Positions 40,479 through 57,069 are shown, counted from the stretch's first letter. The stretch: DNA of 64,000 bases from a virus (IMGVR_UViG_3300024270_000002); one strand, 5' to 3'. A program made the numbers and translations. Notes: generated by a model not told the origin, from the letters alone.

Positions 40479-40534
40479 GAGCCTATACTTATTTCTCAAC
40501 ATATTCTGGAAAAATATTTTTTGACAGTTAGGCC
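40479..40534 (+). ncRNA. bulged-stem (Y-RNA-like) small RNA copy 1
   Basis: GCCTA-T-ACT/AGT-TAGGC stem, TATTTCT, internal ATATT-CTGGAAA-AATAT hairpin. Confidence 0.75.
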
Positions 40535-40629
40535 AAAATAAAGAAACTACTTATTTAAGCGGTGGCTTGTTTTGGTGTATTTATTATCAAAAAGCTATCG
40601 CTAATTTTATTTTATCGGAGGTATTTACC

Positions 40630-42612
40630 ATGACTGAACTTCAGAACATTCTTATTGCTCGTCGTATGCTCGTAGCATCTGATTATAAGGATGCTTATAA
40701 CCCTAATCTCAAGATTGAGAAGGCATATATTAATGCTTTCCTTCTTTCCAACTTCGGTATCGTTGTAGATAAGCCTGAGCTCCTTACTAAGGAGATGGTA
40801 AAGGATATCTCCGATATCTATAAGCTTGAGGTTCCTGCTTCTTATTTCAAGAATCCTCAGGACACCCGCTTCTATACTGCTGAGGAGCTTCTCGTTGAGC
40901 AGTGCGTATCGTATTTCCTTGCTTACGGTGCCGAGGATTCTCATGTTCATGTATTTGATAAGGAGCTTCCTTCTTATCCTGTAGGTGATGAGATCAAGAT
41001 CCGTGAGTTCCGTATCCTTAGCTCAGACGAGGCTCTCGCAGAGCTTTTGGCTATCACTAAGGCTTACGCCGCTTATAAGCGTCCTTGGGGCCTGGACGAG
41101 ATCAATGAGTTCCTTACTCTTTATACTAAGGGCTTCTATCGCTTCACTGAGATGCCTATTCTCTGTGGTGATAATGCTGTAACTATGCTTGATCATAATA
41201 CTGATTTCGGTCAGTTCTTGTTCAAGAAGGACGTAGTAAAGCTTTCTGTAGCCAAGGCAGGCGAGAAGAAGGAGCTTACTCTTGACCCTGAAACCCGTAG
41301 ACTTATTAAGGCTATTCTCCCTCTCGTGAAGGATTGTCCTATGTCTAAGAAGCAGGCGAAGTATTTCAATAAGCTCGTCCAGATCACTGGCGTGAACGTA
41401 AAGAAGACTTCTAATGCTTGTTCACCTAACAAGCTCGCTCTCGAGGAGCTTAATGCTGGTAATGTTCTTGACGCCGCTGAGATTTTCGCTAAGTCTGGCT
41501 CTCTTCTTGAGCGTAACCTCAAGTTCCTTCTCTCCAGAGCTAATCCCGTTGAGGCAGTAAAGATTCTCGATATGCTCTCTGACCAGAACCCCACTGTTCT
41601 TTATCAGCTCATGTCTACTATCACTGCAGATACTGAGGATGCTCGTACCTTCTCCTTCTATGCTAAGAACAAGATCAAGACTCACGTTGAGACTGAGTAC
41701 GAGGCACGCTATAGAAAGTCTCGCCTTAATGACGCAACCAAGAAGCTCGTCCATGACGTATGCTTTAATAAGATTGCAGGTCATTATCAGGCAGCTGAGA
41801 AGCTTGGAAAGGTTTACATCGATCCTAAGTTCTATCGTGTTGCAATGCCCGTAAATACCTCTGCTTCTGGTAAGGGTATTGATGTTCCTGCCACTGGTAC
41901 TCGTCTGCCTATTACCGGTACTAAGATTCGTTCTTTTGTACACTGGGAGAAGGCGTTCGATATTGACTCTTCTATTGTTCTCGAGCATGAGGACGGTAAG
42001 CTTAATACCATCAACTTCTGCAGCTACCACGACAGAAACTACAATGGCGCTGCTCGTTTTTCTGGTGATATTACTGGTCCTCAGGGAACTGAGTACTTCG
42101 ACCTTGATCTTGAGTCTCTCAAGAACCAGGGTGTGAAGAGAGTAGTATTTACCTTCCACGGTTATTGTTCTACTCTTAACTCTGGTGAAATCTACTGTGG
42201 CTACCAGAACAAGAAGGACTTCAATACCAAGGCTTGGGATCCTAAGAATATTGAGCTTAAGATCCATGTTAAGGGTGAGAAGCGTGCCTATGTGGCGTTT
42301 GCTGTCGACCTCGAGACTATGGAGATTGTAGTACTCAACCTTATGCGTGATGATGACTCTCGAGTTGTTTCTGCTAAGGACTTTGAGTCTATCAAGGCCT
42401 TCATGGATCCTGCAAAGCTTGAGCTCAATATGGGTCTCATTGCTGAGTGGCTTGCGACCGAGGTAGTAGAGAATCCTACTGAGGCAGACTATGTGTTTGC
42501 AGATGATTATACTACTCCTATTAACCTTCAGGATGAGAACGGCGAGCCTAAGGTTCAGACCGTAATCAGATCCTTCGACGTCGAAAAGCTTAACGAGATT
42601 GCAAACGTTTAA
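40630..42612 (+). CDS. large alpha-helical protein with C-terminal TerD-like domain (660 aa; candidate Ro/TROVE-like RNA-binding protein)
   Basis: GGAGG RBS at ATG 40630; FVHW...DIDSS...FSGDIT...EYFDLDL TerD-like motifs; strong codon bias. Confidence 0.7.
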   Translation: MTELQNILIARRMLVASDYKDAYNPNLKIEKAYINAFLLSNFGIVVDKPELLTKEMVKDISDIYKLEVPASYFKNPQDTRFYTAEELLVEQCVSYFLAYGAEDSHVHVFDKELPSYPVGDEIKIREFRILSSDEALAELLAITKAYAAYKRPWGLDEINEFLTLYTKGFYRFTEMPILCGDNAVTMLDHNTDFGQFLFKKDVVKLSVAKAGEKKELTLDPETRRLIKAILPLVKDCPMSKKQAKYFNKLVQITGVNVKKTSNACSPNKLALEELNAGNVLDAAEIFAKSGSLLERNLKFLLSRANPVEAVKILDMLSDQNPTVLYQLMSTITADTEDARTFSFYAKNKIKTHVETEYEARYRKSRLNDATKKLVHDVCFNKIAGHYQAAEKLGKVYIDPKFYRVAMPVNTSASGKGIDVPATGTRLPITGTKIRSFVHWEKAFDIDSSIVLEHEDGKLNTINFCSYHDRNYNGAARFSGDITGPQGTEYFDLDLESLKNQGVKRVVFTFHGYCSTLNSGEIYCGYQNKKDFNTKAWDPKNIELKIHVKGEKRAYVAFAVDLETMEIVVLNLMRDDDSRVVSAKDFESIKAFMDPAKLELNMGLIAEWLATEVVENPTEADYVFADDYTTPINLQDENGEPKVQTVIRSFDVEKLNEIANV

Positions 42613-42746
42613 AAATATATTGGGCGTTAATATCACAATTAATGCCCAATAAAAATTTATTAATTTAATAAATTATTAGCTAAATTTTATATAATTATGT
42701 TGTATAATAAATTATAAGTAAAAATATTACAAAGGTGGTAAGTAAG

Positions 42747-42899
42747 ATGGATAAGTTTGTTGAAGAGATTACTAGAGATTGCTTTCTTGAGGATATTAAC
42801 CGTAGATATAATAAAGAAACGGTTGATACTATTATTGAGGCAGTAGAGCATCCTGATACCTTACATAAGCTTACTTCTTGGGAGGAGCTTGGGCTGTGA
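42747..42899 (+). CDS. 50-aa RelB/DinJ C-terminal-like antitoxin (not in ORF track)
   Basis: NKETVDTIIEA...LTSWEEL; GTGA overlap with toxin. Confidence 0.55.
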   Translation: MDKFVEEITRDCFLEDINRRYNKETVDTIIEAVEHPDTLHKLTSWEELGL

Positions 42900-43192
42900 G
42901 AGAGATTTTATACACCAGTACTTTTTCTAAAGATTTAAGAAAGGTTAAGAGCTACCCTGCATTTAAAGCAGATAAGCTAAAGTCTTTTGTAAATAAGCTC
43001 GCAAATGGCGAGGCTCTTCCTGATTCTGCGAAGAATCATCCTTTGAGCAAAGTAAGCCCTAAGCATTATCGCGGAATGTATGATTTTCATATAGCTCCTG
43101 ATATTGTAGTAGTCTATAAGATGGATGATACAAGTATTTCTTTGATTAGGATTGGTAAGCATAACAATTTGGGTTTAACAGAAGATATTTAA
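42896..43192 (+). CDS. yafQ: YafQ/RelE-family mRNA interferase toxin
   Basis: TSTFSKDLRK...NHPL...DFHIAPD.VVVY...RIGKH. Confidence 0.8.
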   Translation: MREILYTSTFSKDLRKVKSYPAFKADKLKSFVNKLANGEALPDSAKNHPLSKVSPKHYRGMYDFHIAPDIVVVYKMDDTSISLIRIGKHNNLGLTEDI

Positions 43193-43230
43193 AAAAATTT
43201 CTAAAATAACCAAAATTTAATAAATTTATA

Positions 43231-43244
43231 TTGTATAATATAAT
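43231..43244 (+). promoter_or_regulatory. TTGTATAATATAAT promoter (representative of about 19 copies)
   Basis: Recurring extended -10-like motif before operons and RNA genes. Confidence 0.7.
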
Positions 43245-43248
43245 ACAA

Positions 43249-43309
43249 GAGCCAATGCTTATTTCTGCTGCATAAGCACCAAACTTTTAATTTGTGATTT
43301 AGCTTGGCC
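43249..43309 (+). ncRNA. bulged-stem small RNA copy 2 with Lys-type CUUUUAA loop
   Basis: GCCAA-T-GCT/AGC-TTGGC; CAAA-CTTTTAA-TTTG. Confidence 0.75.
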
Positions 43310-43332
43310 ATAGTTTAGTTTTATGTTATACT

Positions 43333-55754: not shown

Positions 55755-55990
55755 TTTAGGAAATAGCTGATGTGTAAGGCATCTTGTCGGTAAGGAGACA
55801 ATAAACCCTTTATCAGTGTGCGGAGCGCGGTACTAAGGGACGCAGCTATAATTCTCCCGGACGCAGAATTATCCCAGGCAATTGTTGCAAGGTAGCGCTC
55901 AAGTTGCTGGATCTTATAACCAGAATCGTAGCGCAACGAAGAGGATGCTGACCGTAAACAACCTCTATAAAAACAACGGTCCATTAATAT

Positions 55991-56073
55991 GCGGGTGTGG
56001 TGTAATGGCAGCCACGTATGCCTTAGGAGCATATGCCTTGTGCGTGTGGGTTCGAATCCCACCACCCGCACCA
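55991..56073 (+). tRNA. tRNA-Leu(UAG)
   Basis: TATGC-CTTAGGA-GCATA; CCA. Confidence 0.92.
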
Positions 56074-56084
56074 ATAACTTTTAT

Positions 56085-56161
56085 GGCGGTGTAGTTCAGC
56101 TGGTTAGAACGCGTGCCTGTCACGCACGAGGTCCTCGGTTCAAGTCCGTGCATCGTCGCCA
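56085..56161 (+). tRNA. tRNA-Asp(GUC)
   Basis: CGTGC-CTGTCAC-GCACG; CCA. Confidence 0.92.
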
Positions 56162-56681
56162 CTTGTAGAAATGTTAGCAAAATAAGCCACTACAGCAAAC
56201 CAGAGGCGTGGGTAACCAATCCCACAGGGCTCGCTATGAGCTCTTGGGCACGGAAGCTGCTGGGTATCAAATCGGCGGATATGCGGTTGGTCGACCTTAA
56301 GATCACCATTAATTAAAAATATTATTGGTCGCTGTGGTATGAACACAGACGCTGTCGCAGGTCGTAGCGGCGGAGCAAGGACGCGGTGAACAGACGACGT
56401 TAGTAACCAGTCTAAATGAGGTAAGGGCCATAAGCTTGCGTAAAGTGGTGCGTCTTAGCGGACAATTCCACGCCAATAAGTTATATATCGTGAGGATAGA
56501 CGAAGCATCGAGTCGGGTCTCTCATCATATGAGGCTGACAACACTAGAAGTAAGTTTGAATGTATCAGCTGTAGACTAAGAAACTGCTTCTTGAAGTGAA
56601 AAATAGGTGATGTACTTCGGTACCATGTATTTAGTAGCAAGTTATAAGTAGGTTTAAGTCCTACCTTCACAACCATTATAT

Positions 56682-56758
56682 TGCCGCTTAGCTCAGTCGG
56701 TAGTAGCACGTGACTGTTAATCACGGTGTCCTGGGTTCGAGCCCCAGAGCGGCAGCCA
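56682..56758 (+). tRNA. tRNA-Asn(GUU)
   Basis: CGTGA-CTGTTAA-TCACG; CCA. Confidence 0.9.
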
Positions 56759-56933
56759 ATAGAGTAAGAGCTACTCAAAAAGCTATTGCAAAGCTTTATA
56801 AAGCTCCATGCGATGCGAAGATGCCGCAAGTGTCTCCTGTAATAAGCCACTATGCGAAAAAGCCGTTAATGGGCCTCTGCTAAACGTTAAATACAGAGGA
56901 AAAAGACTTGTGATACAGGTACAAGTCTATTAT

Positions 56934-57009
56934 GCTCGGTTAGTCAAGTTGGTCAAGACGCGGGCCCTTCAAGCCTGAGGCAGGAGTTCGAACCTCCTAC
57001 CGAGTACCA
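56934..57009 (+). tRNA. tRNA-Glu(UUC) (C33)
   Basis: CGGGC-CCTTCAA-GCCTG; CCA. Confidence 0.85.
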
Positions 57010-57013
57010 TATA

Positions 57014-57069
57014 GAGCCAATGCTTATTTCTAACGTAAATTTTGGGAATTTAAAAGTAGTAGCTTGGCC
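57014..57069 (+). ncRNA. bulged-stem small RNA copy 4 with Pro-type UUUGGGA loop
   Basis: GCCAA-T-GCT/AGC-TTGGC; TAAAT-TTTGGGA-ATTTA. Confidence 0.75.

What the first reader, a model, noticed from the sequence alone, without database searches (positions are those of the whole stretch)
40501..57052. Cargo of several bulged-stem RNAs is an isolated anticodon stem-loop: possible nuclease decoys
Seen: copy 1 carries ATATT-CTGGAAA-AATAT (Ser-GGA-type 7-nt loop). Copy 2 carries CAAA-CTTTTAA-TTTG, the same loop as the tRNA-Lys(UUU) at 47629. Copy 4 carries TAAAT-TTTGGGA-ATTTA, the same loop as the spliced tRNA-Pro. Copies 3, 5, 6 and 7 also display TGG(A/G) in the cargo. Known: host anti-phage anticodon nucleases such as PrrC cut tRNA-Lys(UUU). 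Inference: these may be protein-tethered anticodon decoys or repair guides.
Basis: inference. Interest (0 to 1): 0.72.

Follow-up and report, generated by a model that had tools for sequence, protein, structure and literature searches.

The report
Phage Y-like RNAs displaying anticodon arms
A large phage encodes eight small RNAs that share one conserved "handle" and go with a Ro60-like protein; some of them display a copy of a tRNA's anticodon arm (above all lysine tRNA), but whether they act as decoys for host tRNA-cutting enzymes is untested.

Summary
They sit in eight copies of one RNA family: an 8-bp stem with a bulged U, an invariant UAUUUCU, and a variable cargo. Of 33 hits to the 5' motif, 32 have the matching closing strand (control 0/33).

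- **Partner protein:** the family is coupled to the neighbouring 660-aa gene (helical part with weak Ro60 likeness, plus a TerD domain). Distant homologues of that gene carry handle RNAs beside them too, including in the cultured Rhodococcus phage Weasels2.
- **Anticodon claim, solid for copy 2:** ten homologues keep a 5-bp stem with compensatory changes in every pair. The loop is always 7 nt, mostly CUUUUAA (Lys).
- **Supported for copy 1:** CUGSAAA is kept over four different stems.
- **Weak for copies 4 to 7:** homologue loops run from 3 to 8 nt. What is conserved is a UGGG motif, which also stands in the YrlA consensus.
- **Relatives:** some YrlA-like cargos carry a whole anticodon arm (Lys, Thr, Ser, Asn).

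So tRNA-part display on a protein-bound scaffold is well supported. Decoy function is only one option, and "repair guide" is unlikely. The scan has already found this protein-RNA pair on other DNA. I found no paper on it.

The parts
40479..40534 (+). Copy 1. Handle 5' part 40479-40496, cargo 40497-40525 with hairpin ATATT-CTGGAAA-AATAT (40501-40517), closing strand 40526-40533. It lies in the leader of the 660-aa gene, downstream of the promoter-like repeat at 40431-40451.
   Evidence: Copies at the same position in relatives keep CUGCAAA over three other stems, or carry UUUGGGA or a 3-nt loop instead.
43249..43309 (+). Copy 2. Handle plus cargo 43267-43300, made of a mini D-arm-like hairpin (GCT-GCATA-AGC), an A, and an anticodon-arm mimic CCAAA-CTTTTAA-TTTGT (Lys-UUU loop). 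It starts a few bases after the promoter at 43217-43244.
   Evidence: the tRNA model aligns its D and anticodon arms; covariation in all 5 stem pairs; loop always 7 nt.
43333..43445 (+). Copy 3. Handle plus an 86-nt YrlA-like permuted tRNA mimic: AAUGCUGGGAAC, T arm, acceptor hairpin closed over CCA, D arm.
   Evidence: Rfam YrlA, 39.2 bits, E 2e-7, below the gathering score of 69; z -2.5.
57014..57069 (+). Copy 4. Handle plus hairpin TAAAT-TTTGGGA-ATTTA, which can also pair as TAAATT-TTGGG-AATTTA. It lies 4 nt after tRNA-Glu and just before the promoter of the GOLLD RNA.
58725..58780 (+). Copy 5. Handle GCTTG/CAAGC; the cargo contains CUGGAU. First member of a tandem array of four.
   Evidence: The same array order is seen in L012, L021, L030, L179 and L237.
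58799..58851 (+). Copy 6. Cargo hairpin TAAAAT-TATGGGAT-ATTTTA (8-nt loop with UGGG).
58877..58951 (+). Copy 7. Cargo with the G+C hairpin CCTGG-ACGTATGGG-CCAGG.
58966..59064 (+). Copy 8. 72-nt cargo with a long hairpin and no TGG(A/G). It ends 8 nt before tRNA-Met.
40630..42612 (+). Gene for the likely partner protein, 660 aa. Helical repeats at about 130-400, a TerD-fold domain at 429-591, and an overall weak likeness to Ro60.
   Evidence: (pLDDT 90.4). Synteny with handle RNAs.
39469..40398 (+). Polynucleotide-kinase-like gene (AAA_33 / PHROG 'polynucleotide kinase') directly upstream. This gives the RNA-repair setting.
47629..47705 (+). The phage's real tRNA-Lys(UUU). Its anticodon arm is ATCGA-CTTTTAA-TCGAT, for comparison with copy 2.
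53132..53276 (+). Split tRNA-Pro(UGG). Its loop would read TTTGGGA once the 67-nt insert is removed, for comparison with copy 4.

Best explanation
The eight RNAs belong to a phage family of small RNAs built like Y RNAs.

The shared handle is GA, 5 bp, a bulged U, 3 bp and a single-stranded UAUUUCU, closed by AGY plus 5 nt. It is most likely the binding site for the protein encoded at 40630-42612. That protein has a helical ring-like part, weakly Ro60-like, fused to a TerD domain.

The variable cargo is an exchangeable module presented by this particle. In part of the family the module is a piece of tRNA:
- a whole permuted tRNA body (copy 3, YrlA-like);
- the D-arm plus anticodon arm of tRNA-Lys(UUU) (copy 2);
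- a bare 7-nt-loop hairpin (copy 1).

Other members present a UGGG-containing loop (copies 4-7) or other hairpins (copy 8).

Selection keeps the anticodon-loop letters (C32, U33, A37, A38, and often UUU) while the stems drift. So these modules probably engage proteins that read anticodon loops. By analogy with Y RNAs, which tether Ro60 to other enzymes or gate it, and given the Pnk, RtcB and Rnl2 neighbours, the particle most likely works in the contest over tRNA cleavage and repair during infection. It could hold anticodon-directed enzymes (repair or modification) on the particle, or soak up anticodon nucleases.

Shown here: the family, its covariation, the gene-RNA synteny, the protein fold and the anticodon-arm mimicry.
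Inferred: binding to the protein, expression and processing, and every functional step.
For: Family and handle:
- Eight copies in the window.
- 32 of 33 hits to the 5' motif have an 8/8 closing strand; the control gives 0/33.
- There are 21 different 5-bp stems, all complementary.
- Complete relatives hold 1 to 9 copies per genome, all on the gene strand; the reversed-pattern control finds 0.

Coupling to the protein:
- One or two copies lie directly upstream of the gene in 4 of the 5 complete genomes searched, each of which carries the gene.
- Homologues at 23-27% identity have one to three handle RNAs just upstream of the gene in 5 of 5 loci. Four carry an unbulged UACUUCU variant; L285 carries the bulged UAUUUCU type.
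- The same holds in L316, L317 and L327-L329.
- Rhodococcus phage Weasels2 has them directly after gp266, with RtcB 3 kb downstream.

Protein:
- The model has pLDDT 90.4.
- The TerD domain scores Z 13-14.
- Three Ro60 structures are the only long alignments in the list: 1yvp Z 6.6 over 307 residues, 2nvo Z 6.0 over 297, and phage 9l5y Z 5.2 over 278.

Y-RNA likeness:
- Copy 3 hits Rfam YrlA at E 2e-7.
- The Weasels2 RNA hits YrlA at 26 bits.

Anticodon mimicry:
- Ten copy-2-type RNAs show compensatory changes in all 5 stem pairs, with 92% of cells paired. Over the whole structure tested (handle plus this stem) 96.9% of cells are paired, against 8-52% when the partners are slid.
- The loop is always 7 nt.
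- In YrlA-like relatives the handle is inserted in the 5' strand of a 5-bp anticodon stem, which leaves CU-NN-UAA loops (Lys, Thr, Ser and Asn, two each).
- Weasels2 displays CUCUUAA, the Lys-CUU loop.
- Enrichment is 21 against 3.7 +/- 2.0.

Setting:
- A Pnk-like gene lies next door.
- In G001, RtcB is flanked by five handle RNAs, and an Rnl2-like ORF adjoins the protein gene.
Against: - No Pfam TROVE match, in the protein, in distant relatives, or in five complete genomes.
- The Ro60 structural likeness is weak: Z 5-7, rmsd 5-6 A, below the level at which helical repeats can match by chance. Foldseek does not list Ro60 at all.
- The handle does not contain the bacterial Rsr-binding motif GNCGAAN0-1G (PMC4201824).
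- One complete genome (G004) has one handle RNA but no detected protein gene.
- The hairpins of copies 1, 2 and 4 are thermodynamically marginal.
- More distant protein relatives (22-27% identity to the second group) showed no handle with the motif I searched for.
Confidence: 0.6

Rival explanations
1. Decoys in the strict sense. The anticodon-arm cargos are substrates or tight-binding mimics that draw off host anticodon nucleases, sparing the real tRNAs. Candidates are PrrC, RloC, PARIS AriB, Cas13 or VapC/MazF-type tRNases. The protein protects or concentrates the decoys.
For: - Lys-UUU, the commonest displayed loop, is the tRNA named as a target of PrrC in the literature (PMC2610378). From my own knowledge it is also a target of PARIS and Cas13a.
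- The loop letters are conserved while the stems covary.
- A Lys loop recurs in the very distant Weasels2 system.
- The RNAs lie in tRNA arrays beside RNA-repair genes.
Against: - At least seven different anticodons are displayed (Lys UUU and CUU, Asn, Thr, Ser, Cys, Leu). That is more than any one known nuclease would need.
- Many family members carry no anticodon-like loop at all.
- No nuclease, cleavage site or protection has been observed.
- Stoichiometric decoys would have to compete with abundant tRNA.
Confidence: 0.2
2. The elements act in cis. They would be leader or spacer structures that control processing, stability or translation of neighbouring transcripts. An example is autoregulation of the 660-aa gene through copy 1. 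The tRNA-like cargo would then be an evolutionary leftover of tRNA genes.
For: - Copy 1 and its counterparts always sit in the leader of the protein gene.
- Other copies abut tRNA genes, so tRNA-processing enzymes could define their ends.
Against: - Tandem arrays of four to five copies occur with no downstream ORF.
- Each array position keeps its own cargo type across phages.
- The anticodon arm shows covariation and its loop is conserved, which indicates selection on the cargo itself.
Confidence: 0.12
3. Permuted or split tRNA genes. The handle would be a processing or joining signal, and the tRNA-like cargos would mature into working tRNAs.
For: - Some relatives hold complete tRNA bodies with a 5-bp anticodon stem and a 7-nt loop.
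- One has an A-CCA 3' end followed by a nested element and then the 5' half (L024/L301).
Against: - Most cargos lack the acceptor and T arms.
- Acceptor stems are closed by short loops, usually without CCA.
- The unpermuted tRNA-like cargos have mismatched acceptor stems or a 6-nt anticodon loop.
- ARAGORN calls none of them as tRNAs.
Confidence: 0.05

Closest known systems
Bacterial and phage Y RNAs of the YrlA type with Ro60/Rsr (Rfam RF02553; Chen et al. 2014, PMC4201824; Thermus phage phiLo Ro60 with Yrl1/Yrl2, PMC12135203)
   Same: - Small RNAs whose 5' and 3' ends form a protein-binding stem and which carry a variable module.
- One member (copy 3) has the YrlA topology: T arm, closed acceptor, D arm.
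- The RNA genes lie next to the gene of a ring-like helical protein and near RtcB or other RNA-repair genes.
- Several different RNAs serve one protein.
   Different: - The handle sequence is different: it has no GNCGAA/CGAA motif and has an invariant UAUUUCU or UACUUCU instead.
- The partner protein has no detectable TROVE sequence signature and carries a TerD domain where Ro60 has vWA.
- Only copy 3 reaches even a sub-threshold YrlA score.
- Some members keep or isolate a complete anticodon arm. The YrlA consensus structure in Rfam has no such arm.
tRNA (anticodon/D domain), in particular tRNA-Lys(UUU)
   Same: Copy 2 and its homologues reproduce the D stem, A26, a 5-bp anticodon stem, the 7-nt loop CUUUUAA and, in some, the variable-loop letters GGGUG.
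   Different: There is no acceptor stem, no T arm and no CCA end. The D loop is cut down to 3-8 nt, and the handle stands where the acceptor/T limb would be.
Phage answers to tRNA-targeting defence: tRNA repair by T4 Pnk and Rnl1, and replacement tRNAs (for example the T5 tRNA-Tyr against retron Ec78, 10.1101/2023.03.15.532788)
   Same: The genomic setting is shared: a large tRNA array, a Pnk-like kinase and RNA ligases. The anticodon loops displayed belong to tRNAs known as nuclease targets.
   Different: Those systems use enzymes or functional tRNAs. Here the anticodon arm sits on a non-tRNA scaffold that cannot be charged.
RNA mimics used as viral decoys (for example adenovirus VA RNA, PMC6599070; from my own knowledge, phage RNA anti-CRISPRs that mimic CRISPR repeats)
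   Same: The idea is the same: a viral non-coding RNA copies the shape of a host RNA to occupy a host protein.
   Different: No target protein is known here, and no inhibition has been shown. The resemblance is conceptual only.

Membership tests
YrlA / Y RNA-like (Rfam RF02553) | Scores at or above the family's gathering score (69 bits) | tested here: not met
   Copy 3 scores 39.2 bits, E 2e-7. The other seven copies give no match even at E 10.
YrlA / Y RNA-like (Rfam RF02553) | tRNA-like module: T arm, acceptor-like stem closed by a loop, D arm | tested here: met
   Met for copy 3 only. Copies 1, 2 and 4-8 lack it.
YrlA / Y RNA-like (Rfam RF02553) | Rsr-binding motif GNCGAAN0-1G near the 5' end (PMC4201824) | tested here: not met
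   The 5' strand is GAGCCWAU-RCU followed by UAUUUCU. No CGAA is present.
YrlA / Y RNA-like (Rfam RF02553) | Encoded beside a Ro60/Rsr (TROVE) gene | tested here: not met
   TROVE PF05731 is absent from five complete related genomes and from the adjacent protein. The neighbour is a helical-plus-TerD protein instead.
YrlA / Y RNA-like (Rfam RF02553) | Physically bound by Ro60 | not testable with these tools
   Needs immunoprecipitation or a gel-shift assay.
Ro60 / TROVE protein (for the partner, 40630-42612) | Sequence match to the TROVE domain | tested here: not met
   No Pfam hit in the protein, in 10 distant relatives or in the 40 members of A3. The profile finds no PDB sequence.
Ro60 / TROVE protein (for the partner, 40630-42612) | Ring of HEAT-like helical repeats superposable on Ro60 | tested here: inconclusive
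   1yvp Z 6.6 (307 aligned, rmsd 5.4), 2nvo Z 6.0 (297), 9l5y Z 5.2 (278). These are the only long alignments in the list, but they fall below the level that is safe for helical repeats. Foldseek does not list them.
Ro60 / TROVE protein (for the partner, 40630-42612) | C-terminal vWA domain with a MIDAS site | tested here: not met
   Residues 429-591 have the TerD fold: 2qz7 Z 13.3, 3ibz Z 13.7, Foldseek E 2e-5.
tRNA (RF00005) | Full cloverleaf with open acceptor ends, called by tRNA finders | tested here: not met
   ARAGORN and Rfam call none of the eight copies. The tRNA model aligns only the D and anticodon arms of copy 2, at 15.5 bits.
tRNA (RF00005) | Anticodon arm: 5-bp stem and a 7-nt loop with U33 and a purine at position 37 | tested here: met
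   Met for the copy 2 type, with covariation in all 5 pairs and a 7-nt loop in 10 of 10. Met in form for copy 1. Ambiguous for copy 4, where loops of 3, 5 or 7 nt are possible.

The most novel reading that the evidence does not exclude
The particle is a modular display stand. A Ro60-like/TerD protein holds a set of interchangeable RNAs that present isolated anticodon arms (Lys, Asn, Thr, Ser, Cys, perhaps Pro) to host tRNA-cutting defence enzymes. They would act as decoys, or as sacrificial sensors whose cleavage calls in the neighbouring repair enzymes. This would be the first RNA-based counter-measure to tRNA-targeting immunity.
Probability: 0.2. Interest if true: 0.85.

Novelty: new variant of a known kind. 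Interest (0 to 1): 0.62.

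Why it matters
Y RNAs and their tRNA-like YrlA form are known, but what the tRNA mimicry is for is still open.

This family differs in three ways. It has a different handle. Its partner protein is different (TerD in place of vWA, with no TROVE signature). And it goes further in mimicry: it keeps, or even isolates, the anticodon arm, most often that of tRNA-Lys, a favourite target of bacterial anti-phage nucleases.

If the display is functional, it links Ro-like particles directly to the fight over tRNA cleavage. It also makes the question testable in a cultured phage: Rhodococcus phage Weasels2 carries the same gene-RNA set, with RtcB close by.

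Neither Rfam 15 nor the papers I could search describe the family. This scan has met the protein-RNA pair on several other genomes, so the new point here is the anticodon-arm cargo.

Tried and rejected
- **Self-cleaving ribozyme or other Rfam family:** nothing but the sub-threshold YrlA hit for copy 3.
- **Mobile element with terminal inverted repeats:** rejected, because the two handle strands covary instead of being conserved in sequence.
- **Bacterial homes for the RNA:** the loose motif scans of genome and metagenome collections gave mostly chance matches. True elements were nearly all on phage-like contigs.
- **Close relatives among deposited phages:** none by megablast.
- **TROVE by sequence:** not found.
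- **First structure model:** the shallow alignment gave pLDDT 65, and the helical part matched only generic repeats. The deeper alignment fixed this.
- **Targets complementary to the displayed loops in the window:** nothing notable.
- **Wide search for handle RNAs beside the most distant protein relatives:** the UAYUUC motif gave as many matches on the wrong strand (38) as on the gene strand (45). Only the clear cases are counted (L315-L317 and L327-L329); the rest are left open.
- **The search for related loci with alignment A3:** failed because no conserved block was available. It was repeated with A6.

Full report
**Setting.** The window is a large phage, about 37% G+C. It holds 31 ARAGORN tRNAs between 44.7 and 59.2 kb, with further Rfam tRNA matches from 43.6 kb, all on the + strand. 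A GOLLD RNA lies at 57469-57989 and ten copies of a strong promoter-like repeat are present. It has no close relative among deposited phages, and no whole genome is held for it.

**The observation.** The three quoted hairpins each occur once, exactly where stated. They lie inside copies of one repeat. Its 5' part, GAGCCWAT-RCT-TATTTCT, matches seven times with up to three mismatches, against 0.1 expected. An eighth copy starts at 58725.

Each copy reads GA, 5 nt, a bulged T, RCT, TATTTCT, a cargo of 26-86 nt, then AGY, the complement of the 5 nt, and C. RNAfold recovers this bulged stem in six of the eight copies.

The loop of copy 2 is that of the phage's tRNA-Lys(UUU). The loop of copy 4 is that of the split tRNA-Pro once its insert is removed.

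**Is the family real?** The 5' motif alone finds 40 stretches in IMG/VR. In an unbiased set (the window plus five complete relatives), 32 of 33 hits to the 5' motif have an 8/8 closing strand within 220 nt. With the 5' strand reversed as a control, 0 of 33 do. Among 95 unique cargos there are 21 different 5-bp stems, always complementary. Complete genomes hold 8, 3, 9, 1 and 4 copies, all on one strand, and the reversed pattern finds none. Loose scans of bacterial genomes and metagenomes gave mostly chance hits, and the real elements are on phage-like contigs. Rfam 15 has no family for it. Only copy 3 gives a sub-threshold YrlA match (39.2 bits, E 2e-7, gathering score 69).

**The partner.** Copy 1 lies in the leader of a 660-aa gene (40630-42612) that has no Pfam family. 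This protein has hundreds of close relatives and about 200 clusters at 50% identity, nearly all 650-740 aa long.

In four of five complete genomes the gene is present, with one or two handle RNAs directly upstream and more downstream. I looked up homologues at only 23-27% identity. All five have one to three handle RNAs just upstream of the gene. Four carry a variant form, an unbulged 8-bp stem with UACUUCU. L285 carries the bulged UAUUUCU type. One of the five sits in a G+C-rich genome.

The same holds for L316, L317 and L327-L329. It also holds for the cultured Rhodococcus phage Weasels2. There, at least three handle RNAs follow gp266 inside a tRNA array, and RtcB lies 3 kb downstream. An RNA motif that changes together with a protein family while keeping its place beside the gene is good evidence for a functional pair.

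**What the protein looks like.** With a deep alignment the model is confident (pLDDT 90.4, pTM 0.89). Residues 429-591 are a TerD domain (Z 13-14; Foldseek E 2e-5).

Against 48,161 representative chains, the only long alignments are to Ro60: Xenopus 1yvp (Z 6.6, 307 residues), Deinococcus Rsr 2nvo (Z 6.0, 297) and the Thermus phage Ro60 9l5y (Z 5.2, 278). These scores are too low to prove kinship for a helical repeat protein, and no TROVE sequence signal exists. I therefore call it Ro60-like in outline, not a Ro60.

The handle also lacks the bacterial Rsr-binding motif GNCGAAN0-1G. What it shares with Y RNAs is the plan: a terminal stem with a bulge and a conserved 5' strand.

**The cargo.** The 106 unique cargos fall into classes.

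(a) A mini D-arm hairpin, an A, then a 5-bp stem with a 7-nt loop. Copy 2 is of this type. In ten distinct sequences all five stem pairs show changes on both sides and 92% of cells are paired. Over the handle and this stem together 96.9% of cells are paired, against 8-52% when partners are slid. The loop is 7 nt in all ten:
- CUUUUAA in six and AUUUUAA in one (Lys);
- CAUUUAA in one;
- CUUGUAA, CUGCUAA and CUGCAAC in one each.

One homologue even keeps the variable-loop letters of tRNA-Lys. The Rfam tRNA model aligns copy 2's cargo to its D and anticodon arms. This is a genuine mimic of the anticodon/D half of tRNA-Lys.

(b) A bare hairpin with a 7-nt loop. Copy 1 has CUGGAAA. Copies at the same place in relatives have CUGCAAA over three other stems (AAAATT/AATTTT, AGAT/ATCT, AGA/TCT). 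Some relatives carry UUUGGGA or a 3-nt loop there instead.

(c) A/U hairpins with a G-rich loop. Copies 4 and 6 are of this type. When fully paired, the loops are 3-8 nt (UGG, UUGGG, AUGGG, AGGG, AAAGGG, UUUGGGU, UAUGGGAU). Only GG(G) is constant. UUUGGGA is the tRNA-Pro loop, but the varying loop size argues against an anticodon fold. TGGG is strongly enriched (19 of 63 short cargos, against 1.6 +/- 1.3). The same AAUGC-UGGGAA letters stand in copy 3 and in the Rfam YrlA consensus.

(d) YrlA-like permuted tRNA bodies. Copy 3 is of this type. In eight relatives the handle is inserted in the 5' strand of the anticodon stem. Two or three pairs lie on one side and two or three on the other, always five in all. 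A complete anticodon arm with a CU-NN-UAA loop is thus displayed: Lys, Thr, Ser and Asn, two each. Weasels2 has the same design with CUCUUAA, the Lys-CUU loop. The YrlA consensus structure in Rfam has no such arm.

(e) Unpermuted tRNA-like bodies, G+C hairpins and long hairpins (copies 7 and 8).

Overall, anticodon-like 7-nt loops other than T-loops number 21, against 3.7 +/- 2.0 in shuffles. The sequences are related, so this is not a probability, but the different stems show several independent lineages. The variant subfamily also has CUGUUAA, CAGUUAA and CUUAAAA loops.

**Weak points.** The window's own hairpins in copies 1, 2 and 4 are A/U-rich, and energy alone does not favour them (z -0.5 to +0.1). 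The case rests on comparison. I could get no expression data.

**How it most likely works.** The RNAs are transcribed from their own promoters or within tRNA operons. Copy 2 starts a few bases after a promoter. Copies 4 and 8 abut tRNAs. The handle is probably bound by the helical-plus-TerD protein, and the cargo is presented.

The neighbours point to RNA repair:
- a Pnk-like kinase directly upstream;
- in one relative, RtcB flanked by five handle RNAs;
- in the same relative, an Rnl2-like ORF beside the protein gene.

Y RNAs are known to tether Ro60 to other enzymes, and a phage Ro60 with its Yrl RNAs binds host PNPase (PMC4201824; PMC12135203). By analogy, the anticodon-arm modules would engage proteins that read anticodon loops. 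Two kinds of partner fit:
- repair or modification enzymes held on the particle;

The data do not choose between them. The many different anticodons favour a general reader or several partners. The predominance of Lys favours a link to Lys-specific nucleases. A "repair guide" is unlikely because the cargo has the same sense as the tRNA.

**Comparison and novelty.** The closest known systems are Ro60/Rsr with YrlA-type Y RNAs. This family fails the YrlA membership tests on score, binding motif and TROVE neighbour, so it is a separate family that works on the same plan.

I found no paper describing it. A jumbo-phage survey mentions only ROT/TROVE proteins with a tRNA-like partner, and TerD separately (PMC7824862).

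Notes from this scan show that other agents met the same protein-RNA pair on at least eight other stretches of DNA. What is specific here is the display of anticodon arms.

Noticed in passing
window 42878-43192 (+): ORF of 104 aa matching the YafQ toxin family (Pfam E 1e-20). It lies between the 660-aa gene and copy 2. From my own knowledge, E. coli YafQ cuts mRNA at AAA lysine codons on the ribosome, which is curious next to a Lys-anticodon mimic. I did not look for an antitoxin.
   Followed up: no
window 57469-57989 (+): GOLLD RNA (Rfam 160 bits, above its gathering score) immediately after copy 4 and its own promoter-like repeat.
   Followed up: no
window 53132-53276 and 43576-43764 (+): tRNA genes interrupted in the anticodon loop by a tRNA-like insert that ends in A-CCA. 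I checked the tRNA-Pro case by eye: the two halves would join to give the loop TTTGGGA.
   Followed up: partly
window 45448-45522 (+): ARAGORN calls a tRNA with a four-letter anticodon (aaag), that is an 8-nt anticodon loop. Rfam's tRNA model gives it 46 bits.
   Followed up: no
L024 10897-11066 (= L301; IMGVR_UViG_3300028797_000094) and L003: A handle RNA whose cargo is a permuted tRNA. The 3' half ends in A-CCA, then comes a complete second handle RNA nested in the acceptor loop, then the 5' half.
   Followed up: partly
G001 (IMGVR_UViG_3300021400_000048) 2356-4285, minus strand: An RtcB RNA-ligase gene flanked by five handle RNAs, two upstream and three downstream. The three downstream ones carry a YrlA-like body with a Thr loop, an unpermuted tRNA-like body, and a mini D-arm plus anticodon arm with a Ser loop.
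   Followed up: partly
L315 4399-4745 (Rhodococcus phage Weasels2, NC_041887.1, about 85485-85831): A cultured phage with the same system. At least three handle RNAs lie in the unannotated gap after gp266, each inside an outer stem that ends in GCUCACC. tRNAs lie upstream and RtcB (gp256) downstream.
   Followed up: partly
window 40431-59287 (+): Ten copies of a promoter-like repeat (TTGTATAATATAATA with an A/T-rich upstream part) head the RNA and tRNA blocks (repeat family D9).
   Followed up: no
window 46822-47619, 48441-49280, 51061-52131 (+): Three endonuclease-like ORFs (PHROG HNH or endonuclease families) scattered among the tRNA genes. Each is preceded by a shared 30-nt repeat (families D10, D15).
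   Followed up: no
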